Source of the DNA: an archaeon
GTDB lineage: Archaea > Undinarchaeota > CAZHTU01 > JBDRCC01
Reading direction: 5' to 3'
DNA length: 64,000 bases
Assembly (NCBI GenBank): GCA_043822065.1
Contig: JBDRCC010000020.1
Location: 64,001 to 128,000, forward strand
A program made the translations under genes and the position numbers. The notes beneath the pieces were generated by a model that ran no database searches, had not been told where the DNA came from, and saw nothing but the letters and a program-made list of their open reading frames with translations. This document shows positions 1-8,318 of this stretch, piece after piece (within the stretch, counting starts at the first letter, position 1; the number at the start of each line of letters is the position of its first letter).

Positions 1-1229
1 GTCTCCCTTACTGCCGGCTTCCCGAAGACTGAAAGGAACCTCTTCGCAATCAGGTCGTACAGGCTCCTCAGCGGCTTGTCAAGCTCCGACGGCATTTCGC
101 CAGTCGGGTGGATTGGCGGGTGCGCAGGGTCCTTTCCCTTTCCAACAGTTGGAATCATCTTGTCCTTCAGGACCTCTGCTGCGAGAACCGAGTACACCGG
201 GTTCCTCTGGAGCGCCTGGACCACCTTACTCAGGTTTATCCCAGGCGGGAACTGCTGGGACGCAGTCCTCGGGTATGAAATGAGCGCCATCTCGTAAAGC
301 GTCTGCGCAAGCTTCTGGGTGTATGCTGGCTTGAACCCGAAGACGCGGTAAGCTTCGGTCTGGAGGGTGGTCAGGTCGAACGGCACAGGCGGGCTCTGGT
401 TCTGCCTCTTCCTGTCGACTGACTCAACCTTGCCGTCTTTCCCCCTGCACTTCGCTACTATCTTCTCTGCGTCCTCACGCTTGTCGAACTTTTCCTTCTC
501 GTGCCAGGCAGAGTACGGCGTATTGTCCGCCTTGAACTTTAGCTCCACCTGGAAATATGTCTGCGGGGCGAAGGCGCGTATGTCCCTCTCCCTATCGACG
601 AGTATCTTGAGTGCCGGGCCCTGGACTCTACCGGTTGACATGGTCAGGAAATTCCCTGACGCCTTCCGTATGGCGTGCGTCAGCGCCCTGCTGACGTTTA
701 TGCCGTAAAACCAGTCAAGCTTGTGCCTAGCCTCGCCAGATTCTGCGAGCTGGAAGTCAGGCTTTTCAAGGCTCTCAAATGTCCTTACTAGCTCCTCCTT
801 GGTCAGGGTCGAGAACTTCATCCGCTTGGACTTTTTCATCGAGCCAGGCGGGCATGCATGCTCTATTATGTTGTGGCCTATGAGCTCGCCCTCCAGGTCG
901 TAGTCAGTCGCGACGACGAATTTTGAAGCCCCAACTGCAAGGGACTTTATCCTCTGAAGGTATGGCTTAGAAAACTTCGCATTCTTGTCGACATCGGAAA
1001 TCGGAGCCCAGCTGATGCCGAAAACCGGGTACTCCCAGCCGCTCTCTGTCTGCTTGAGCCCGAAAATATGGCCCACCGACGAGACGACGACTATCTCCTC
1101 GCCCCCGTGGCTGAGAATGTAATTTGAGACCTGCCCCTTTTTCTCCTCCTTGACCGGGCCGTCTGCCAGCGAAGCCGCAATCCTCCTGGAAACGTTCGGC
1201 TTCTCAGTTATAACAAGCGTATAGGGCAT
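1..1229 (-). CDS. topA: DNA topoisomerase I (type IA), 3' end runs off window
   Basis: Manual translation of minus strand from ATG at 1229: MPYTLVITEKP (Toprim), SSVGH, ATDYDLEGELIG, STGRVQGPAL, PFDLTTLQ, LYEMALISYPRT (catalytic Tyr), AHPPIHPTG. Absent from ORF track because no stop lies in window. Confidence 0.95.
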   Translation of the reverse strand, partial: MPYTLVITEKPNVSRRIAASLADGPVKEEKKGQVSNYILSHGGEEIVVVSSVGHIFGLKQTESGWEYPVFGISWAPISDVDKNAKFSKPYLQRIKSLAVGASKFVVATDYDLEGELIGHNIIEHACPPGSMKKSKRMKFSTLTKEELVRTFESLEKPDFQLAESGEARHKLDWFYGINVSRALTHAIRKASGNFLTMSTGRVQGPALKILVDRERDIRAFAPQTYFQVELKFKADNTPYSAWHEKEKFDKREDAEKIVAKCRGKDGKVESVDRKRQNQSPPVPFDLTTLQTEAYRVFGFKPAYTQKLAQTLYEMALISYPRTASQQFPPGINLSKVVQALQRNPVYSVLAAEVLKDKMIPTVGKGKDPAHPPIHPTGEMPSELDKPLRSLYDLIAKRFLSVFGKPAVRE

Positions 1230-1267
1230 AGCATGGATGGATTTACTAAACCTTATAAATACTTTCC

Positions 1268-2056
1268 CTATCGGTGCAGGAATTCAAGCTTCTCATAGAA
1301 GCTTTCCCTGAACCTGACGATGTGCGCCTTCTCGTCCGACTTTTTTATCCTGATTTTCTCATGCCTGATGTTATGGCGCTCTATCCCGTCGGCAACTACC
1401 ATCATCTCGCCGGTCTCGATGGCAACGTCAATGACGCTGCTGTCCGGGATAACCAGGGACTTGGACGAGAGGGAGTGGGGGGAAAGGGGCGTTATTATTA
1501 TGACCTCTGCGAGCGGGTGCACTATGGGCCCGCCGGCCGAAAGCGAATAGGCAGTGGAGCCGGTCGGCGTTGCAAGAATCAACCCGTCGGACCTGAAGGT
1601 CTTGTACCCTTTATTGTCAACAACAACCTTCATCTGGCACAGTCTGCCCGGCTTATGGGTCATGATGACAATCTCATTCAGGACGGGATGCTGCCTCTTC
1701 TTGTTTATCCAGAAGTCTAGCTTGGCCCGCTCGACGATTCTGTAGTCCCCCGCAAGGACTCTCTTTATTGCAGACCTGTAGTCCCTCTCGGTCGCCTCGC
1801 AAAGGAAGCCGATGCCCCCCTTTTTTATGCCCAGAATCGGCGTCGAGTTCCTCTGCAGGTAGGCTGTTTTCAGCATTGTGCCGTCCCCGCCGATGGCAAT
1901 TATCATGTCGGCCTTGCCAGAATAGGGCTTGGCCTTCACGGCCTTTACAAGGTTTCCAGAATACTTGACATCGTGCCCCCTTAGCAGGGCTTTGACATTT
2001 TTGACAATCTCAAGGACCTTTGGGTCAGTTTTATGGGCGGTTATTACGAACTTCAT
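1268..2056 (-). CDS. nadK: NAD(+) kinase
   Basis: GGDGT, GFL, NE, DG..ATPTGSTAYSLSAGGP motifs; start placed at MKFVIT. Confidence 0.93.
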   Translation of the reverse strand: MKFVITAHKTDPKVLEIVKNVKALLRGHDVKYSGNLVKAVKAKPYSGKADMIIAIGGDGTMLKTAYLQRNSTPILGIKKGGIGFLCEATERDYRSAIKRVLAGDYRIVERAKLDFWINKKRQHPVLNEIVIMTHKPGRLCQMKVVVDNKGYKTFRSDGLILATPTGSTAYSLSAGGPIVHPLAEVIIITPLSPHSLSSKSLVIPDSSVIDVAIETGEMMVVADGIERHNIRHEKIRIKKSDEKAHIVRFRESFYEKLEFLHR

Positions 2057-2155
2057 TAAACTAATTATGAATGTTGGTAATATAAAGTTACCCAATGGGT
2101 TACTGGCATCTTACTCTCTCTAAACGTTTAAGGGTTAAAAATCCTAAATTATTTC

Positions 2156-2959
2156 ATGAAGTTTGATTTGTCGCAGGTTGAATTCTCCGAAACTGACATA
2201 GAGCGCGAAATAAAAATACCAAACAAATTAACCCCCGAATTGGCAGAAATAATTGGTTTGCATCTGGGCGACGGGAATATTTACAAGCAAGCTGGCCGTG
2301 GCTCTGTATTTTCGTATACTTGCTGTCTTGACCAAGAAAGAGCGTATTATGATCAATACTTCATTCCAAAATTGAAGGGTCTCTTCAATTTGAAGGTAAG
2401 ACCTCACATACCAAAAGAGAACGAATACCGCATTCGGATATACTCTAAAGCTCTTTTTACTTTTTTTACAAAGGTTCTCAAAATTCCAGCATGTAATAAA
2501 AATAGTATGCTAGCCGTCCCCCAATATATAAAAGAAAGCAGCCGTGAAGTTAACAATGCTTTTGTTCGAGGGTTTGCCGATACTGATTTTTGTCTAATTT
2601 TTAAAAAGCGGCACAAAAAATTCCATTACTACCCTTCAATAACCGGCATGTTGTCCTCAGCCACTATACTACAGTATATCGAAGACTATCTCCAAGCAAT
2701 GGGCTTCGAACTATCTCATTGCTACAACCGCAGACAATACGACCGTAGAACCGGTAAGTTCTACACAAAGAATGAAATCGCGCTCTACGGTTCGGATAAT
2801 CTTGGAAAGTGGATGCGGGAAATAGGATTCTCGAATCCAAAGAATATTACTAGATACGCGATTTGGAAACAATACGGCATCTGCCCACCGCAGATAACTC
2901 AGGAAGAACGGAACCGAATCCTAAGTGGAGAGCGGTCACCCTACTCCCATTATGAGTAA
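2156..2959 (+). CDS. Free-standing double-motif LAGLIDADG homing endonuclease-like protein
   Basis: Motif 1 LAEIIGLHLGDGN, motif 2 FVRGFADTDFC, IGFSNPK tail; no intein splicing motifs; AT-rich relative to neighbours. Confidence 0.85.
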   Translation: MKFDLSQVEFSETDIEREIKIPNKLTPELAEIIGLHLGDGNIYKQAGRGSVFSYTCCLDQERAYYDQYFIPKLKGLFNLKVRPHIPKENEYRIRIYSKALFTFFTKVLKIPACNKNSMLAVPQYIKESSREVNNAFVRGFADTDFCLIFKKRHKKFHYYPSITGMLSSATILQYIEDYLQAMGFELSHCYNRRQYDRRTGKFYTKNEIALYGSDNLGKWMREIGFSNPKNITRYAIWKQYGICPPQITQEERNRILSGERSPYSHYE

Positions 2960-3060
2960 TGGGCCTGGAGAGATTTGAACTCTCGACTTCCAGCTATCCT
3001 AGGATGTACAGAGTACAGCCATATAAGACTGGCACTCTAACCAAGCTGAGTTACAAGCCC
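2960..3060 (-). tRNA. tRNA-Ile(UAU) with 26-nt intron at 37/38 (intron 2996-3021)
   Basis: Reverse complement folds: acceptor GGGCTTG/CAGGCCC, A73, D arm ACTC/GAGT, anticodon stem CCAGT/GCTGG with loop CT-TAT-A^A, T arm GAGAG-TTCAAAT-CTCTC; BHB helix CUUA/UAGG. Confidence 0.92.
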
Positions 3061-3087
3061 GTAACGATAGCTTAGAAAACTGTTATA

Positions 3088-3097
3088 TTTATATATA
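3088..3097. promoter_or_regulatory. TATA box region between divergent tRNA-Ile(UAU) and HTH regulator
   Basis: TTTATATATA about 24 nt before ATG 3120 and about 28 nt before the tRNA 5' end on the other strand. Confidence 0.6.
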
Positions 3098-3119
3098 TCC
3101 CTCTTAGCTAGTATCAAAC

Positions 3120-4007
3120 ATGGAAACGAAGCATGAAGTGAGGGCAGTTCTGGAAGAAGCCGGCTTTGACATCTTCGAGACCAGCCGCGGCTACTCATAC
3201 GACTTTATCGCCAGGAAGGAATCCAGGCTCATCTTCATCAAGACCCTCTCCAACCTGGAGTCGTTTTCGCTCGAGCACGCAAAGGACCTTTCCTCCCTTT
3301 CAAATGAGCTGAGGGCGAGCGTCCTCATCGTCGCGGACGGCTCGGCAGCAGGGAAGCTGAAGGATGACACAGTCTACGAGCGGTTTGAAATTCCCGCAAT
3401 CACCGTCGGCACCCTCAGGCACATACTCGAGGGGGAGGACCCCCTGGTCCGCGCCGGAAGGGGCGGATTTTACGTCCAGATTGACGGAGACCGGCTGCGG
3501 GAGATTAGGGAGCAGTCAGGAATGTCGCTCGAGCACCTGGCAAGGCGCGCCGGAGTGTCTAGGAAGTCAGTCCGCGAATACGAATCATCCGGAAGCGCGA
3601 CAATCAAGACCGCGATCCACCTTGAGCAGATAATCCAGGAGTCGGTCGCCAAGCCGATAAACGTATTCGAAATCGAGACAACGCTTATCGAGCGCAAAAT
3701 CCATGCGTTCGAGAACTCCGTCGTCCAGAAGCTGAACGTCCTTGGCTTCGACGTCGCATACGCGAAAAAGTCCCCGTTCAACATAGTGGCGCGCGAGGCG
3801 AAGGAGGACATAATCTCGGGGCTTACCAACGAGAACTTAAGGGAAAAGGCGACAGTCCTCAGGCGCGTCGGAGACCTCCTTGAAGCTGAGCCGCTCTTCA
3901 TACTCAAGAAGTCCAGGACAACTGAAATCGAGGGAATCCCGGTAATCGACGAGAAGCTCCTCAAGAAGATACGCGACCTTGACGAGTTTATTGAAGCGTG
4001 CAGGTAA
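3120..4007 (+). CDS. Archaeal XRE/Cro-C1 HTH transcriptional regulator (COG1395-like)
   Basis: YDFIARK..IFIKTLSNLES N-domain, VYERFEIP, RGGFYVQIDGDRLREIRE..SLEHLARRAGVSRKSVREYE HTH, PFNIVA. Confidence 0.85.
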   Translation: METKHEVRAVLEEAGFDIFETSRGYSYDFIARKESRLIFIKTLSNLESFSLEHAKDLSSLSNELRASVLIVADGSAAGKLKDDTVYERFEIPAITVGTLRHILEGEDPLVRAGRGGFYVQIDGDRLREIREQSGMSLEHLARRAGVSRKSVREYESSGSATIKTAIHLEQIIQESVAKPINVFEIETTLIERKIHAFENSVVQKLNVLGFDVAYAKKSPFNIVAREAKEDIISGLTNENLREKATVLRRVGDLLEAEPLFILKKSRTTEIEGIPVIDEKLLKKIRDLDEFIEACR

Positions 4008-4011
4008 CCAA

Positions 4012-4797
4012 ATGGACAGAGTACTCTTCATGGGCACCGGCGGAGGAAGGTGGAACTGCATCTACCAGACGCGCTCGACGGCAGGCTTCAGGCTCGAGCT
4101 CGGGCAGAAAAAAATCCACATCGACCCTGGTCCCGGCACGATTTCCAGGTACAAGGCGCTCAGGATAAATCCGCGGACGAACAGCTGTATAATTGTCACA
4201 CACTGCCACCTCGACCACTACGACGACGCAGAGGTGCTTATCGAGGCGATGAGTATGGGAAAAAAGGGCGGCGTCCTACTCGCAGGAAAGAACGTTCTTG
4301 AAGGCACCGGCAACTTCCAGTCGCCAGTCAACACCTTCCACCGCGCCCTGCTTGCTGAGTCCAAAGTGCTCTCAGACGGCGGGGAGTACCTCCTTGACAA
4401 AATAAGGATAGAGGCGGTCGGCTTGAAGCACTCTGAGCCGGAGAACATCGGCGTCATCTTCCATTCCAGCTCAAAAATCGGGTACGTGTCGGACACAGAA
4501 TACTTTCCCGCACTCGCCCGCAGGTTCAAGGGAATGGACCTGCTTATACTCAACCTCCTGCGCCCGGCAAACTTCAGGATTCCGGGGCACATGTGCACCG
4601 AAGACGCAATCACGCTCATAAACGAGGCAAAGCCGCGCAGGTGCGCCATAACCCACTTCGGGCTCAAGATGGTCCGCGCAAACCCGGCCGCCCACGCCGC
4701 GAAGATATCCTCCTCAACAGGAATCGAATGCATAGCCGCAGAGGACGGGATGCGCCTCGATGTGGCGAAGCAGACCAATTTACAGTCTTTCAGCTAA
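4012..4797 (+). CDS. MBL-fold metallo-hydrolase
   Basis: FMGTGGGR, IDPGPG, THCHLDH, YVSDT, GHM, THFG motifs. Confidence 0.9.
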   Translation: MDRVLFMGTGGGRWNCIYQTRSTAGFRLELGQKKIHIDPGPGTISRYKALRINPRTNSCIIVTHCHLDHYDDAEVLIEAMSMGKKGGVLLAGKNVLEGTGNFQSPVNTFHRALLAESKVLSDGGEYLLDKIRIEAVGLKHSEPENIGVIFHSSSKIGYVSDTEYFPALARRFKGMDLLILNLLRPANFRIPGHMCTEDAITLINEAKPRRCAITHFGLKMVRANPAAHAAKISSSTGIECIAAEDGMRLDVAKQTNLQSFS

Positions 4798-4828
4798 AAA
4801 TATAAACCTTGGCGGGATTAGTCTTCAC

Positions 4829-5551
4829 ATGCGGATGTCCTACATATTTACAATCGCCCTTGCAGTGGCAGCAATCATACTCCTCTACGCCTCAATAGGG
4901 TTTTACGTCGACCGCTCCGAAGCCGAGGCCTGCACCCAGACGCAGGAGCGGCTTGAACAGGCAACCCCAACGCTTCTTGGGGGGCAGCTCAAGTATGTTC
5001 TCTCAGAATTCGGCATGCCCGAGGTGCAAACCCCGGCGCCGGCTGATTACACGGCGTCAATTGCCTCCCTGCGGGCGCGCGGAACCGAAGACCCAGCCAA
5101 GCTGATAGACCTGACAACATTTGAAACAAGCCACTTCCTAATGTCGGGCTATCTGAAGACATCCGAGTGCAACCTCTTCACGAACCTTGCGCGCGTAAAT
5201 CTCGGCCGCTCCTCCCTTTTCCTCGGAGAGCTTCTCAAGGGCACGGATGTCTCCCTTCTTGAAGGCGAGCTATCGGACGTAGACTCAAGCTACCTAGTGA
5301 TAATACATTCCGCAGTCCCTGACAAATGCGGCTACGAGCCTGAGAACCTCTTCCTGACAATCTTGGAGGAGAAATACTGCGCAGGCCTGCACGAGCAGGC
5401 ATTCCTTCTAGCGCAGTACCTCAAGGCAAGCTTGGACGACGTCCAGGACGCGCCATCCAAAACCTACCGCGCAGTTATGCTCAACTGCATGGCAGACTGC
5501 GTAAATAGGGACGCCTGCCTGGATAACTGTTTAAATGAGAAAATAGCTTAG
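4829..5551 (+). CDS. Hypothetical membrane-anchored/secreted protein, Cys-rich C-terminus
   Basis: N-terminal hydrophobic helix; C-terminal CMADCVNRDACLDNC; host-like codon usage. Confidence 0.65.
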   Translation: MRMSYIFTIALAVAAIILLYASIGFYVDRSEAEACTQTQERLEQATPTLLGGQLKYVLSEFGMPEVQTPAPADYTASIASLRARGTEDPAKLIDLTTFETSHFLMSGYLKTSECNLFTNLARVNLGRSSLFLGELLKGTDVSLLEGELSDVDSSYLVIIHSAVPDKCGYEPENLFLTILEEKYCAGLHEQAFLLAQYLKASLDDVQDAPSKTYRAVMLNCMADCVNRDACLDNCLNEKIA

Positions 5552-5560
5552 TTCAGCCAC

Positions 5561-5668
5561 GGGCTCGTGGCGAAATGGTATCGCGCCGCCTTCGCATAAC
5601 ATTTTCTTTTAGAAAAGGAAAGCGTTAGGAAAAGGCGGAGGCTGCGGGTTCAAATCCCGCCGAGTCCA
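5561..5668 (+). tRNA. tRNA-Ala(CGC) with 36-nt intron (5597-5632)
   Basis: Acceptor GGGCTCG/CGAGTCC with G3:U70 Ala identity pair, A73, anticodon stem CCGCC/GGCGG with loop TT-CGC-A^A, T arm GCGGG-TTCAAAT-CCCGC. Confidence 0.92.
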
Positions 5669-5707
5669 CTAATAATTATTATATAGGCCACTTTCAATAT
5701 CTCGCTT

Positions 5708-6775
5708 ATGTTTGGATTTTTCAAGGAAAAGACCAACTTTTACAAGCTGGAGGAGAAAATCTCTGGTTACTCCAAACAGGGCTGGCATTCCTACCTGCTG
5801 TCCACCTACGCCCACAATGCCGCAGTCAAGTCGCTGGCAAAGCGCGGCAAGGCTATATCTGCAGCCTTTTACATCGAGTCAAAGCTCGATGCGGCGGAGC
5901 TGTCGGAAGTCCTTGCGCGGCGCATCGGGGACTTCACAATAGCCGAGTCAAAGCTTTCCCAGCTCAAGCTCAGCGAAATCGAGCAGCTGTACCTAACGGA
6001 TTATCTCTCCGGGGAGCTGTCTGACAAGGAAATCTACCCTCTAAAGATGCGCATGCCGGACTTCGAGAAAATGCTCAAGAAGGCGCTTACTGGCGGGAAG
6101 AACTATCTGCTGGACATAGGCTGCTGGAACGAGGAGTTCTTAGACGCACTCGAGGACAAATTCTTCTCAAAAAACAAGTACGACCACCTGCTAATCGGCA
6201 CGGACTCTGGTGACGTAACCTGCGGGCGGGTTGACAGCCCAGACAAGGAGGATGAGCATGACAGGTTATACGACCCTAGTGACGCCGAGGACGAGCCGGA
6301 TACTCCTTTCAGGGAGTTCTACCAGTTTGAAGTGGAGAGCAAGCACGATATTGCCGATGCCTATTACGAAGCCTGGGAGAAGACGGGAATCCTCAATGAG
6401 CTGCCGGACGGCTTCAAGCGCGACGACATACTCCGCTTCAGGTACGAAAAAAACATACTCACACTGCACGGCTTCCTTGGGGACTACCTTTCAACCAAGC
6501 GGCTTTTCAAGAAGGACTTCCTGGAAAAAACAAAATTCGACGTAATCTTCCTCCGCAGGATGTTCCCCTATGTCGACTACAAAGATGTTTTTGAGGAGAC
6601 TAATACGTTCACAAAGAGCTACTTCATAGTCTCCTACAGCCTTCCCTACACGAAGGACGACAAGCCAAACCCCTCGCCAGCTGAACTTTTGTCAGAGCTG
6701 AAGAAATACGGATTCAAAAAGGCGGACCTGTACGAGACCGAGACCTTCTTCTGGCTCCTTGCCAAAAAGAAATAA
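5708..6775 (+). CDS. Class I SAM-dependent methyltransferase-like protein with acidic insertion
   Basis: LLDIGC motif I, LIGTD, FDVIFLRRMFPYVD, ELKKYGF end motif. Confidence 0.6.
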   Translation: MFGFFKEKTNFYKLEEKISGYSKQGWHSYLLSTYAHNAAVKSLAKRGKAISAAFYIESKLDAAELSEVLARRIGDFTIAESKLSQLKLSEIEQLYLTDYLSGELSDKEIYPLKMRMPDFEKMLKKALTGGKNYLLDIGCWNEEFLDALEDKFFSKNKYDHLLIGTDSGDVTCGRVDSPDKEDEHDRLYDPSDAEDEPDTPFREFYQFEVESKHDIADAYYEAWEKTGILNELPDGFKRDDILRFRYEKNILTLHGFLGDYLSTKRLFKKDFLEKTKFDVIFLRRMFPYVDYKDVFEETNTFTKSYFIVSYSLPYTKDDKPNPSPAELLSELKKYGFKKADLYETETFFWLLAKKK

Positions 6776-6785
6776 GGGCGGCAAA

Positions 6786-7991
6786 TCAGAACGTTTCCAA
6801 TTTGCCCTTGACCACCAGGTCTGTTATCTGCGTTATGTTCTCGAGCCAGTAGTCAGTCAGCTTCTCGACCTTGCTCTTGGCGTCAGAGAACTTCTTGCCC
6901 TTCTCCATCGTCACGTGGACGTTCGCGGCAAGCGGGTTGTCAATCGGCCTTCCAATCTGGCTGAGCAGCTTTACCTGGACCTCTCCGACGCCCTCAACCT
7001 GCTCGGCAATCTCGTCCGCTATCTTGTTTGACAGCAGGTTGTAGAGTTTTCCGACATGGTTTATCGGGTTCTTGCCCGAGGTCGCCTCAAGGCTCATTGG
7101 CCTGTAAGGCGTGATAAGGCCGTTGCACCTGTTCCCCCTTCCGGTCGAGCCGTCGTCCCCCATCTCGGCGGACGTCCCGGTAACCGTCAGGAAGTAGCAG
7201 TTGGACTCGTAGTTGTCACCCGTGTTGACACAAACGTTCACTTTCCTGTCGGTGACGCTTTTTGACATCTCCTCGATGTCCTTCTTGATTGTGCCGACTA
7301 CCGCCCTATAGTGGTCTATGTTCTCAGTCTTTCCAGAGACTATCGCGGCTGCAATCGTCAGGTCGATGGTGTCGTTCCTCCTGAGCCCCATGACCTTTAT
7401 GTCCTCCCCAACCTGGGGGCACTTGTTCTTGAACTCCCTTGAGTTCAGCCGCTTCTCGGTCCCGAAGACAAGCCTTTCGACGTCGCTGTACGGGGCAAAG
7501 CCTACGCCAAAGGAGGTATCGTTTGAGTTTGGCATGCTCTTTCCCCTTGAGAAGACGTCAACAAGGTCCGCAGACCCGCTTCCCATCCTGGAGTCTATGA
7601 CGACGTGCCTGTCAACGTCGAGGTTCGGGAGGATCTCCTTGAGGTAGGTCTTTGCGGCTTCAATCCCGACCGTGTGGATTCCGACGTACTCGTCCCCGAC
7701 CTTCTCGGTCGCCCTTCCTGAAAGGAGGATGTAAATCGGCTTGAGGACCTCTCCCCCGCCGAACTTAGGATTTGCATACCCGCCCACAATCTCCACCTGG
7801 TCGGTGTTGTGGTGCATGTACCTGTCAAACTTTTTGGCATACTCCCTGCACAGCGCCCTGGAAACCGCCTCTGCGATTCCATCTGCCATGCTGTCCGGGT
7901 GCCCTATACCCTTCCTTTCGACAATCTCGAGGGGCATTTCGTCCATAAGCGGGGAATTTAGCTCCCCAACAAATATATTTCTGCCAGCCAT
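6786..7991 (-). CDS. mat: Archaeal S-adenosylmethionine synthetase
   Basis: VERKGIGHPD, HHNTDQ, NDTSFGVG, GEDIKVMG, GDDGSTGRGNR, GKNPINHVGKLYN; GGAGGT SD upstream. Confidence 0.96.
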   Translation of the reverse strand: MAGRNIFVGELNSPLMDEMPLEIVERKGIGHPDSMADGIAEAVSRALCREYAKKFDRYMHHNTDQVEIVGGYANPKFGGGEVLKPIYILLSGRATEKVGDEYVGIHTVGIEAAKTYLKEILPNLDVDRHVVIDSRMGSGSADLVDVFSRGKSMPNSNDTSFGVGFAPYSDVERLVFGTEKRLNSREFKNKCPQVGEDIKVMGLRRNDTIDLTIAAAIVSGKTENIDHYRAVVGTIKKDIEEMSKSVTDRKVNVCVNTGDNYESNCYFLTVTGTSAEMGDDGSTGRGNRCNGLITPYRPMSLEATSGKNPINHVGKLYNLLSNKIADEIAEQVEGVGEVQVKLLSQIGRPIDNPLAANVHVTMEKGKKFSDAKSKVEKLTDYWLENITQITDLVVKGKLETF

Positions 7992-8201: not shown

Positions 8202-8318
8202 TGGGCCTGACCGGATTTGAACCGGTGACCACCTGATTTCCACCCCTTTTCATTTTGCTTCCGGCTTTCTGAAAAGGCGATATCAGTCAGGCACTCCACC
8301 AGGCTGAGCTACAGGCCC
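8202..8318 (-). tRNA. tRNA-Ile(GAU) with 43-nt intron (8238-8280)
   Basis: Acceptor GGGCCTG/CAGGCCC, A73, anticodon stem CCTGA/TCAGG with loop CT-GAT-A^A, T arm ACCGG-TTCAAAT-CCGGT. Confidence 0.93.

What the first reader, a model, noticed from the sequence alone, without database searches (positions are those of the whole stretch)
2156..3060. Free-standing LAGLIDADG nuclease docked tail-to-tail on a tRNA 3' end: candidate tRNA-targeting mobile gene
Seen: the TAA stop (2957-2959) abuts the discriminator base of tRNA-Ile(UAU) (2960) with no gap. The gene is AT-rich: two hand-counted 60-nt lines (2401, 2461) gave 23 and 20 GC, against 39 for line 3421 in the next gene. It has its own TATA-like box and no intein motifs, host intron or integrase. 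Known: LAGLIDADG enzymes usually sit in introns or inteins and home to conserved sites. Motif 2 reads DTDF rather than the usual D-G. Inference: a host-intron-free homing element that uses the tRNA 3' junction as a safe target, possibly spreading the intron-bearing Ile(UAU) allele with it.
Basis: partly seen in the sequence, partly recalled or inferred. Interest (0 to 1): 0.75.

Follow-up and report, generated by a model that had tools for sequence, protein, structure and literature searches.

The report
Homing nuclease genes docked on tRNAs
This gene belongs to a large family of stand-alone DNA-cutting "homing" nuclease genes in tiny DPANN archaea that sit flush against the end of one particular tRNA gene, each branch of the family keeping to its own tRNA.

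Summary
ORF 2156-2959 (+) is a free-standing, two-domain LAGLIDADG protein. Its TAA stop touches the discriminator base of an intron-bearing tRNA-Ile(UAU) at 2960-3060 (-). It is the lowest-GC stretch of the 64 kb window.

The docking is family-wide. Of 68 evaluable homologous loci, 33 have an Rfam tRNA at the ORF's 3' end, against 0.86 expected. A looser scan plus inspection raises this to 58 of 70 loci, including the genome's own paralog. Most are convergent and some tandem, and the ORF's 3' end faces the tRNA.

Nuclease clades follow tRNA identity: 10 changes on the tree, 9 being the minimum, against 27-35 in shuffles. Both catalytic aspartates are conserved and dN/dS is 0.09-0.16. The gene is patchily distributed. 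Two same-order relatives keep the same tRNA-Ile/HTH synteny without it.

Best reading (0.55): selfish free-standing homing endonuclease genes that target or dock on specific tRNA genes, an archaeal LAGLIDADG counterpart of phage T4 SegB. Cleavage is untested.

I found no published description. I rate it a new variant of a known kind.

The parts
2156..2959 (+). Free-standing single-chain LAGLIDADG endonuclease gene, 267 aa. The catalytic Asp codons are D39 at 2270-2272 and D144 at 2585-2587.
   Evidence: ORF. phmmer to I-DmoI gives E 1.9e-7. AF2 model has pLDDT 96.8. Foldseek top hits are LAGLIDADG enzymes. D39 is invariant and D144 invariant or nearly so in the family alignments.
2960..3060 (-). 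tRNA-Ile(UAU). Its discriminator base at 2960 touches the nuclease stop codon. The anticodon lies at 3023-3025.
   Evidence: Rfam RF00005 at 56.2 bits. ARAGORN with introns allowed. It is the single match to a tRNA-Ile(UAU) 5'-half pattern in the genome.
2996..3021 (-). 26-nt intron at the canonical 37/38 position of the tRNA.
   Evidence: ARAGORN i(40,26), and reading of the sequence. Introns at the same position occur in nuclease-less relatives.
2057..2155 (.). AT-rich (29% GC) divergent spacer between nadK and the nuclease gene, with a TATA-like tract 18-25 nt before the ATG. It is the left end of the low-GC insert.
   Evidence: The promoter role is inferred and was not tested.
1268..2056 (-). 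NAD kinase gene, the host flank on the far side of the insert.
   Evidence: Pfam NAD_kinase_C 1.7e-32. In relative G002 nadK lies two genes beyond the tRNA, with no nuclease gene between.
3120..4007 (+). HTH_3-domain protein gene, divergent from the tRNA. It is the conserved host flank used to find the empty sites.
   Evidence: Pfam. Synteny with tRNA-Ile(UAU) holds in G001 and G002.

Best explanation
ORF 2156-2959 is a free-standing LAGLIDADG homing endonuclease gene of a large DPANN-archaeal family whose members live docked on tRNA genes. Each clade of the family is tied to one tRNA species; this copy belongs to the tRNA-Ile(UAU) clade. The proposed mechanism has four steps. (1) The monomeric two-domain enzyme recognises DNA of, or at the edge of, its cognate tRNA gene in a genome that lacks the nuclease gene. 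(2) It makes a double-strand break. (3) Repair copies the nuclease gene from the occupied allele into the spot just outside the tRNA transcription unit. (4) That spot is flush with the tRNA 3' end in the convergent case, and with the 5' end or promoter in the tandem case. A tRNA gene would offer a target conserved across lineages and a harmless landing site tightly linked to an essential gene. Shown here: the fold, the conserved catalytic residues, the docking, the clade-to-tRNA specificity, the patchy distribution, an empty syntenic site in relatives, foreign composition, and purifying selection. Inferred: DNA cleavage, where the target lies, and homing itself.
For: Fold and active site: phmmer hits I-DmoI at E 1.9e-7. 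The AF2 model has pLDDT 96.8 and pTM 0.93, with two helix-then-strand LAGLIDADG units ending in D39 and D144. Foldseek top hits are the TliVMA intein endonuclease, I-Tsp061I and I-DmoI, at E 8e-11 to 1e-8. D39 is invariant and D144 invariant or at least 90% conserved in alignments of 22 and 89 members. 62 of those 89 members hit Pfam LAGLIDADG_3.

Docking: 33 of 68 evaluable loci have an Rfam tRNA edge within -130 to +70 nt of the stop, against 0.86 expected; 31 are convergent and 2 tandem. My own acceptor-plus-T-loop scan finds 53 of 70, against about 7 expected. Five more were seen by eye. The genome's own paralog overlaps a tRNA 5' end by 25 nt. ORFs without their own stop codon read into the antisense tRNA and stop in its T-loop, which gives the recurring 19-nt overlap.

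Specificity: on a 68-row tree, 47 typed rows with 10 tRNA types need 10 changes, where 9 is the minimum. 300 label shuffles needed 27-35.

Mobility signs: free-standing-size hits at E<=1e-18 occur in 8 of 41 related genomes (G000 included). The same-order relatives G001 and G002 have none, although they keep tRNA-Ile(UAU) next to the HTH gene. The ORF has the lowest GC in the 64 kb window. Its closest homologues, at 38-43% identity, are from other phyla. G045 (0.8 Mb) has 10 hits and G042 has 8, lying on different tRNAs. Broken copies exist (L004 and L042; L104). One distant member sits inside an LSU rRNA intron (L066).

Precedent: phage T4 SegB, a free-standing endonuclease encoded in a tRNA gene cluster, recognises the T-psi-C motif of tRNA genes (PMC2330249, abstract read).
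Against: No cleavage, target site or presence/absence polymorphism within a population was observed. The one sequencing run found held only a 184-nt nadK piece and no joint across the nuclease gene. The closest pairs of copies are only 82-84% identical, diverge about as much as their flanking genes, and share synteny on both sides. No recent transfer is therefore documented, and vertical inheritance dominates at short range. dN/dS of 0.09-0.16 at dS around 1 fits a long-kept host function as well as sustained homing. How the occupied allele would escape self-cleavage is unknown if the target lies wholly inside the intact tRNA. The 69 loci were retrieved with a pattern built on the D-T-D-F motif, so they sample one part of the family. 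Kin are not independent, so the enrichment figures overstate the number of independent events.
Confidence: 0.55

Rival explanations
1. The gene is a domesticated, tRNA-linked host factor. In this reading a LAGLIDADG-derived protein is kept because it serves its neighbouring tRNA. It might act as a maturase- or chaperone-like helper for intron-rich pre-tRNA, or as a WhiA-like DNA-binding regulator of that tRNA gene.
For: Purifying selection is strong (dN/dS 0.09-0.16). Close genome pairs show vertical co-inheritance with the flanks. One clade goes with one tRNA species, as intron maturases are specific for one intron. Docked tRNAs are unusually intron-rich: 25 of 33 are longer than 90 nt, against 10 of 36 other tRNAs in the same loci. 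The protein has a C-terminal helical extension of about 55 residues, and WhiA appears among the Foldseek hits at rank 41, E 1.2e-6.
Against: Both catalytic aspartates are kept family-wide. From memory, WhiA and many maturases have lost them. Distribution is patchy: 8 of 41 related genomes, and none in the two same-order relatives, which have the same intron-bearing tRNA-Ile(UAU). Composition is foreign. Copy number ranges from 0 to about 8 per genome. Broken copies exist. Intronless tRNAs are docked too: 7 of the 33 Rfam-adjacent tRNAs are 72-75 nt long.
Confidence: 0.2
2. tRNA flanks are a passive safe haven. The genes move or are reshuffled by some unrelated route and simply survive best beside tRNA genes in very compact genomes. 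The clade-to-tRNA match would then reflect old vertical inheritance of a few ancient dockings, not target recognition.
For: Synteny is conserved on both sides in several same-clade pairs (L022/L023/L028/L035, L010/L015, L029/L038). The nuclease and tRNA stay together through an en-bloc inversion between L031 and L039. Flush abutment could come from deletion pressure in compact genomes.
Against: Chance or tolerance alone does not explain a roughly 38-fold excess at tRNAs over other intergenic sites. Within single clades (Ile-UAU, Asn) the same tRNA species is docked at either end; orientation changes at least 6 times on the tree. Many same-clade loci share no flanking genes. This window's copy is absent from same-order relatives and has GC3 of 0.43 against 0.71-0.74.
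Confidence: 0.15
3. Collaborative intron homing. The nuclease would cut the intron-less form of the neighbouring tRNA gene, the tRNA intron would protect the occupied allele, and intron and nuclease gene would spread together, as proposed for F-CphI and the psbA intron of cyanophages.
For: The docked tRNA carries an intron, and docked tRNAs in general are intron-rich (25 of 33 against 10 of 36; Fisher p about 1e-4, kin not independent). Several carry two introns, including introns at the T-stem/T-loop border.
Against: Four of four nuclease-less tRNA-Ile(UAU) genes in the same phylum (G001, G002, G005, G012) also have an intron after position 37. The enrichment is therefore confounded by tRNA type and lineage. 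The whole Cys clade (3 of 3) and some Thr, Asn and Phe members dock on intronless tRNAs.
Confidence: 0.07
4. The gene is cargo or a remnant of an integrase-type element that inserted into the tRNA 3' end.
For: tRNA 3' ends are classical attachment sites for archaeal viruses and plasmids (review PMC4090602, passages read).
Against: The low-GC insert is only about 0.9 kb and holds nothing but this ORF and its spacer. No integrase gene is present. No direct repeat of the tRNA end flanks it. The same single-gene arrangement recurs in dozens of loci.
Confidence: 0.03

Closest known systems
Phage T4 SegB (free-standing GIY-YIG homing endonuclease in the T4 tRNA gene cluster)
   Same: It is a stand-alone endonuclease gene lying among tRNA genes. 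Its recognition site contains the conserved T-psi-C stem-loop motif of tRNA genes, and it spreads its own gene with neighbouring tRNA genes (PMC2330249, abstract). This is the nearest functional analogue.
   Different: SegB has a different nuclease fold and sits in a phage rather than a cellular genome. One SegB enzyme cuts several tRNA genes, whereas here each clade keeps to one tRNA species and sits flush on its end. Activity is shown for SegB and untested here.
I-DmoI and I-Tsp061I (archaeal rRNA-intron-encoded single-chain LAGLIDADG endonucleases) and the TliVMA intein endonuclease
   Same: They share the fold and the two-motif architecture with an acidic residue at the end of each LAGLIDADG helix. 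A distant family member (L066) is itself inside an LSU rRNA intron.
   Different: The window's gene is in no intron or intein. It has a conserved N-terminal extension of about 25 residues and about 55 extra C-terminal helical residues. Its motif 2 ends D-T-D-F instead of D-G. Identity to the solved structures is only 16-21%.
F-CphI next to the psbA group I intron of cyanophage S-PM2 ('collaborative homing')
   Same: It is a free-standing endonuclease gene beside an intron-bearing gene. The concept comes from search listings and abstract starts; the original 2009 papers are recalled, not read.
   Different: Here the intron is also present where the nuclease gene is absent, and intronless tRNAs are docked too. 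The defining dependence on the intron is not met.
tRNA-targeting integrative elements of archaea (for example SSV-type viruses)
   Same: They use the conserved tRNA gene as a landing site (PMC4090602, passages).
   Different: No integrase and no att duplication are present, and the insert is a single gene of 0.9 kb.
WhiA (LAGLIDADG-derived transcription factor)
   Same: It has a two-domain LAGLIDADG scaffold plus a C-terminal helical DNA-binding extension. It is Foldseek rank 41.
   Different: The catalytic aspartates are retained in this family. That WhiA lacks them is recalled, not tested here.

Membership tests
LAGLIDADG endonucleases (single-chain, two-motif) | Two LAGLIDADG helices, each ending in a conserved acidic residue | tested here: met
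   D39 follows helix 27-39 and D144 follows helix 130-144. D39 is invariant and D144 invariant or at least 90% conserved.
LAGLIDADG endonucleases (single-chain, two-motif) | Duplicated alpha-beta-beta-alpha-beta-beta-alpha fold resembling solved enzymes | tested here: met
   AF2 pLDDT 96.8. Foldseek gives 76 hits at E<=0.001; the top hits are the TliVMA intein endonuclease, I-Tsp061I and I-DmoI.
LAGLIDADG endonucleases (single-chain, two-motif) | Match to a curated family model (Pfam LAGLIDADG_1/2/3) | tested here: inconclusive
   The window's protein scores 15.3 bits against a 22.5 cut-off, E 0.025. 62 of 89 family members match LAGLIDADG_3 at E<=0.001.
LAGLIDADG endonucleases (single-chain, two-motif) | Site-specific DNA cleavage | not testable with these tools
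   This needs purified protein and substrates.
Free-standing homing endonuclease genes (intronless homing, T4 seg/mob type) | The gene lies between host genes, not in an intron or intein | tested here: met
   The N-terminus is conserved from M1 across the family.
Free-standing homing endonuclease genes (intronless homing, T4 seg/mob type) | Sporadic presence among relatives, with an empty site at the same locus | tested here: met
   Free-standing-size hits occur in 8 of 41 genomes. G001 and G002 keep tRNA-Ile(UAU) next to the HTH gene without the nuclease gene. These relatives are only at order level.
Free-standing homing endonuclease genes (intronless homing, T4 seg/mob type) | The enzyme cuts the unoccupied allele near the insertion point, and flanking markers are co-converted | tested here: inconclusive
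   Cleavage is not testable here. There is a hint only: the own tRNA's variable loop and T-arm are 23/23 identical to those of the docked tRNA in L004, against 17/23 for same-order G001. The sequences are too short to decide.
Collaborative homing (free-standing nuclease plus protective intron) | The intron is present only with the nuclease, and intron-less alleles are the target | tested here: not met
   Four of four nuclease-less tRNA-Ile(UAU) genes carry the intron. Seven of 33 docked tRNAs are intronless.
Integrase-type elements inserted in tRNA genes | An integrase gene and a direct repeat of the tRNA end at the far border | tested here: not met
   No integrase is found in 1-7000. No repeat of the tRNA end lies in 1200-3200.
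Intron- or intein-encoded homing endonucleases | The ORF lies inside a self-removing element | tested here: not met
   The ORF lies wholly outside the tRNA and on the opposite strand. Intein-type relatives exist elsewhere in the genome, in open frames of 937-1185 aa.

The most novel reading that the evidence does not exclude
These enzymes read the end of their cognate tRNA gene, chiefly the acceptor-stem sequence. The two strands of the acceptor stem are complementary, so a tRNA gene shows nearly the same 7 bp to anything approaching from either outside end. That would let one nuclease lineage dock on either end, with the 3' end of its ORF facing the tRNA, as in all 53 oriented cases. The heavy, multi-site intron load of DPANN tRNA genes would then be partly an arms race with this family. 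That would put a nuclease, rather than integrating viruses, behind the 'disrupted tRNA genes as protection' idea. It would also yield a natural panel of meganucleases whose targets can be read off their neighbours.
Probability: 0.25. Interest if true: 0.85.

Novelty: new variant of a known kind. Interest (0 to 1): 0.72.

Why it matters
Free-standing LAGLIDADG genes are usually treated as strays from introns or inteins. This one belongs to a large family: 126 clusters at 50% identity with E<=1e-30 and 678 with E<=1e-10. The family has a rule-like genomic habit, with one clade per tRNA species, docked flush on the gene's end.

If the enzymes cut tRNA-gene DNA, three things follow. It would be the first cellular, archaeal counterpart of phage SegB. 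It would make the question of why archaeal tRNA genes are so disrupted directly testable. And it would offer dozens of natural meganucleases with predictable targets.

There is also a practical point for annotation. These ORFs often run into antisense or sense tRNA sequence, and the docked, multi-intron tRNAs are missed by default tRNA finders.

Tried and rejected
Default ARAGORN found no tRNA in the window. This was an artefact of its no-intron mode, and I replaced it with Rfam and ARAGORN with introns allowed.

At first I read the genome's paralog (contig C7) as not tRNA-adjacent, because Rfam at gathering threshold saw only a tRNA 766 nt upstream. That reading was wrong. A relaxed ARAGORN run and my own scan show a class II tRNA with an intron starting 25 nt before its stop.

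The intron-enrichment lead (25 of 33 against 10 of 36) was followed and then down-weighted, because nuclease-less tRNA-Ile(UAU) genes also have introns.

I looked for co-conversion of tRNA sequence with the nuclease gene. The hints (36/39 and 23/23 identities to docked tRNAs of other phyla) rest on sequences too short to count.

I searched 1200-3200 for att-like or target-site repeats. Only short, chance-level repeats turned up, plus a 27-nt, 74% inverted repeat spanning the two divergent start codons.

I looked for closer relatives of the locus in metagenome contigs using the HTH protein. Only two distant fragments came back and neither helped.

Public reads gave nothing usable. One run had a 0.06 share of words. 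When laid, it covered 1700-1883 at 99% or better plus short tRNA-like pieces, with no joint across the nuclease gene. It gives no evidence either way on presence/absence polymorphism.

PHROGs gave no match, and NCBIfam gave only weak hits to intein-containing proteins.

The sigma-70 promoter scanner was not used, because archaeal promoters are outside its scope. Complex prediction was not used because no protein-protein claim is made.

Literature searches found no paper describing LAGLIDADG genes docked on tRNA genes in DPANN archaea. Six papers hold both 'LAGLIDADG' and 'DPANN', and by title and abstract start none is on this. Subscription journals and supplementary files were not visible.
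Full report
WHAT IS THERE. The window is part of a 1.03-Mb, 22-contig, 82%-complete genome. By size and by the labels of the homologues' hosts it is a DPANN-type archaeon. ORF 2156-2959 (+) encodes 267 residues. Its TAA at 2957-2959 is followed at 2960 by the complement of the discriminator base of a tRNA on the minus strand. That tRNA spans 2960-3060: Rfam gives 56.2 bits over the full model, and ARAGORN with introns allowed gives tRNA-Ile(tat) with a 26-nt intron. The default tRNA tool reports nothing in the window because it does not search for introns. All three tRNAs in the 64 kb carry introns. The neighbours are a topoisomerase (3-1229, -), NAD kinase (1268-2056, -) and an HTH_3 protein (3120-4007, +). 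The ORF has 40.5% GC and GC3 of 0.43, against 53-56% and 0.71-0.74 in the flanking genes. It is the lowest of 632 sliding 804-nt windows (mean 0.536, sd 0.030).

WHAT THE PROTEIN IS. Pfam misses it at its own threshold (LAGLIDADG_3, 15.3 bits against 22.5). phmmer against solved structures finds I-DmoI at E 1.9e-7, aligning the G-D-G of motif 1. An AlphaFold2 model built on 89 family members is very confident (pLDDT 96.8, pTM 0.93). It shows two helix-then-strand units, with the helices ending at D39 and D144, plus about 55 extra C-terminal helical residues. Foldseek gives 76 PDB hits at E<=0.001, led by the TliVMA intein endonuclease, I-Tsp061I and I-DmoI. D39 is invariant, and D144 is invariant in 22 sequences and at least 90% conserved in 89. 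The odd D-T-D-F ending of motif 2 is the family consensus. The protein is therefore a single-chain LAGLIDADG enzyme with an intact-looking active site. It stands alone, inside no intron or intein.

THE FAMILY. The word-indexed search found 43 relatives, none above 42% identity. The exhaustive search of 50%-identity representatives found 1786 at E<=0.001, 678 at E<=1e-10 and 126 at E<=1e-30. A scan of species-representative genomes, using a pattern built on the D-T-D-F motif, returned 69 loci. Almost all carry Woesearchaeota, Nanoarchaeota, Pacearchaeota, Aenigmatarchaeota or Micrarchaeota labels, or evidently mislabelled bin names. That pattern restricts the sample to one part of the family.

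THE DOCKING IS FAMILY-WIDE. ARAGORN with introns allowed first showed tRNAs at the 3' end of most of these ORFs. By the stricter Rfam gathering threshold, 33 of 68 evaluable loci have a tRNA edge within -130 to +70 nt of the stop (L061 is cut by its contig end). Of these, 31 are convergent and 2 tandem. The density of the other 36 Rfam tRNAs in the same loci predicts 0.86.

Rfam misses multi-intron tRNAs. I therefore wrote a scan requiring a T-loop, a closed 7-bp acceptor stem, U8 and A14. It finds a tRNA edge at -140 to +120 nt in 53 of 70 loci, the two own copies included. Its background of 216 hits in 568 kb predicts about 7. One of the 53, L054, is doubtful. Inspection adds L010 and L046 (tandem) and L038, L040 and L050 (convergent initiator tRNAs with an intron in the T-loop). 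Twelve loci show no tRNA at the 3' end. Five of those have a tRNA 41-109 nt upstream of the start (L025, L036, L065, L067, L072). One, the Freyarchaeota locus L066, lies inside an LSU rRNA intron.

The genome's own paralog on contig C7 is 33% identical. I first scored it as not docked. In fact its last eight codons overlap the 5' end of a class II tRNA with a roughly 54-nt intron.

Among ten free-standing hits in related genomes, five have an Rfam tRNA in tandem at the stop (L100, L102, L115, L117, L118). Two more have one by ARAGORN only (L106, L116). One has an antisense-tRNA-like tail (L099). Two have none.

ANATOMY OF THE JUNCTION. In convergent cases the stop lies within a few nucleotides of the discriminator base. 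Alternatively the ORF has no stop of its own, reads into the antisense tRNA and ends at a TGA supplied by the T-loop, which gives the recurring 19-nt overlap. A-runs just before several tRNA 3' ends are the tRNA's own oligo-T tract seen on the other strand; that this is the terminator is my inference. Tandem cases fall into two groups. Some are flush or overlapping (+4 to -25 nt). Others are spaced by 26-43 nt, a distance that holds a TATA-like tract for the tRNA; I read that tract by eye. In all 53 oriented cases it is the ORF's 3' end that faces the tRNA.

ONE CLADE, ONE tRNA. I read the anticodons by eye from the sequences. On a maximum-likelihood tree of 68 free-standing homologues (quick IQ-TREE; broken or truncated copies left out) the clades correspond to single tRNA species: Ile(UAU), Asn(GUU), Thr(UGU), Cys(GCA), Tyr(GUA), Phe(GAA), initiator Met, Arg(UCU) and Ile(GAU). 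The 47 typed rows, with 10 types, need 10 changes, where 9 is the minimum. 300 label shuffles needed 27-35. The window's protein sits in the Ile(UAU) clade with L007, L010, L015, L031, L033 and L039. L004 and L063, which are broken, are also on tRNA-Ile(UAU). Orientation (40 convergent, 13 tandem) changes at least six times on the tree, including inside the Ile(UAU) and Asn clades. The association is therefore with the tRNA gene, not with one junction.

MOBILE OR RESIDENT? Signs of mobility are several.
- A profile search of 41 related genomes (G000 included) finds free-standing-size hits at E<=1e-18 in 8.
- The two same-order relatives have none. G001 has only intein-size frames and G002 has nothing.
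- Both relatives keep an intron-bearing tRNA-Ile(UAU) divergent from the HTH gene, with other small genes where the nuclease gene lies here. G002 has nadK two genes further on, and G001 has the topoisomerase.
- Composition is foreign, and the nearest homologues come from other phyla.
- Copy number varies from 0 to 10 hits per genome. G045 (0.8 Mb) has 10 and G042 has 8, a few of them intein-size. Extra copies in those genomes sit on other tRNAs: at least 6 of 14 fetched have a tRNA within 40 nt of the stop.
- Broken copies occur (L004, L042, L104).

Signs against fast turnover also exist.
- The closest pairs are only 82-84% identical.
- They share flanking genes on both sides at similar divergence (L028/L035, L010/L015, L029/L038, L022/L023).
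- dN/dS is 0.09-0.16 in the six pairs where dS could be estimated. Three further pairs were saturated.
- Between L031 and L039 the nuclease-tRNA pair is inverted en bloc within otherwise collinear flanks. The two genes therefore stay linked through rearrangement.

THE INTRON QUESTION. Docked tRNAs are intron-rich: 25 of 33 exceed 90 nt, against 10 of 36 other Rfam tRNAs in the same loci (Fisher p about 1e-4). But kin are not independent and tRNA type is confounded. Moreover, the nuclease-less tRNA-Ile(UAU) genes of G001, G002, G005 and G012 all carry an intron after position 37, one of them about 105 nt long. The three Cys-clade tRNAs and several others are intronless. An arms-race link remains possible but unshown.

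MECHANISM PROPOSED. The best reading (0.55) is a selfish, free-standing homing endonuclease family that uses specific tRNA genes as target and dock. The closest functional precedent is phage T4 SegB. It is a free-standing GIY-YIG enzyme encoded in a tRNA cluster, its 27-bp site contains the T-psi-C motif of tRNA genes, and it drives inheritance of its gene and the neighbouring tRNA genes (PMC2330249, abstract).

One speculative refinement follows from the geometry. The acceptor-stem strands are complementary, so both outside ends of a tRNA gene present nearly the same 7 bp to the ORF's 3' end. That would explain docking at either end in a constant relative orientation, and also the clade-to-tRNA specificity.

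The rivals, in order of weight, are these.
- A domesticated tRNA-linked factor (0.2). Purifying selection and vertical persistence favour it. Retained catalytic residues, patchiness and foreign composition disfavour it.
- Passive survival in a safe haven, with old vertical dockings (0.15).
- Collaborative intron homing (0.07).
- Integrase cargo (0.03). There is no integrase and no att repeat.

NOVELTY. Full-text searches found no description of tRNA-docked LAGLIDADG genes in DPANN archaea. The review PMC4090602, read in passages, discusses tRNA introns as protection against integrating viruses, citing Randau and Soll 2008, which I did not read. It does not use the word 'homing'. I rate the finding a new variant of a known kind: it combines a known enzyme superfamily and the known concept of free-standing homing with a new, rule-like habit of docking on a specific tRNA.

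Noticed in passing
G000 contig C7, locus L002 1486-2280 (ORF) and about 2256-2398 (tRNA): A second free-standing LAGLIDADG gene in the same genome (33% identical, motif 2 D-T-D-G, 40-44% GC against about 52% around it). Its last 8 codons overlap the 5' end of a class II tRNA with a roughly 54-nt intron. That tRNA is missed by Rfam at gathering threshold and by ARAGORN at default stringency.
   Followed up: partly
window 5561-5668 (+), 8202-8318 (-), 2960-3060 (-): All three tRNA genes in the 64 kb carry introns, with Rfam insertions of 39 and 44 nt in the other two. The default tRNA tool reports zero tRNAs for the window.
   Followed up: partly
L011, L023, L028, L030, L031, L035, L041, L070 (docked tRNAs); L038, L040, L050 (initiator tRNAs): There are recurrent non-canonical introns. 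Several docked tRNAs have an intron ending just before the T-loop with a similar 3' end (...CGAA then TTC...). Three initiator tRNAs have an intron inside the T-loop. Many docked tRNAs are 130-205 nt long and seem to hold two or more introns.
   Followed up: partly
L031 2928-3768 versus L039 4977-5829: The nuclease-plus-tRNA-Ile(UAU) pair is inverted as a block between two genomes whose flanking genes are collinear (8 shared ORFs, 34-74% identity).
   Followed up: partly
L066 334-1056 within LSU rRNA matches 1-207 and 1063-2750: A distant family member (28% identity) in a Freyarchaeota contig sits inside an LSU rRNA intron. This links the free-standing family to classical intron-encoded enzymes.
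   Followed up: no
G045 (0.8 Mb) and G042 (1.3 Mb), loci L138-L150: These two genomes have 10 and 8 profile hits at E<=1e-15, mostly free-standing size, on different tRNAs (Gly, class II, Cys and others). This is an unusually high load for such small genomes.
   Followed up: partly
L023 (record titled Candidatus Nomurabacteria) and many records titled 'uncultured Methanosarcinales archaeon': Contigs with this archaeal nuclease gene and intron-bearing archaeal-type tRNAs carry bacterial (CPR) or Methanosarcinales labels. The likely causes are mis-binning or mislabelling.
   Followed up: no
window 2049-2075 and 2137-2163: A 27-nt, 74% complementary inverted repeat spans the divergent start codons of nadK and the nuclease gene. 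Both proteins begin M-K-F.
   Followed up: no
G000 contigs C19:36737-37321, C21:6036-6620, C22:61925-62443: There are three further LAGLIDADG matches in open frames of 937, 1107 and 1185 aa. By their size these are probably inteins in large host proteins.
   Followed up: no
window 2960-3060 versus L004 4844-4975 and L010 5810-5924: The own tRNA-Ile(UAU) is 23/23 identical in variable loop plus T-arm to the docked tRNA of L004, and 36/39 identical in the 5' half to that of L010, both from other phyla. The figures for same-order G001 are 17/23 and 34/39. This may hint at co-conversion, but the sequences are too short to judge.
   Followed up: partly
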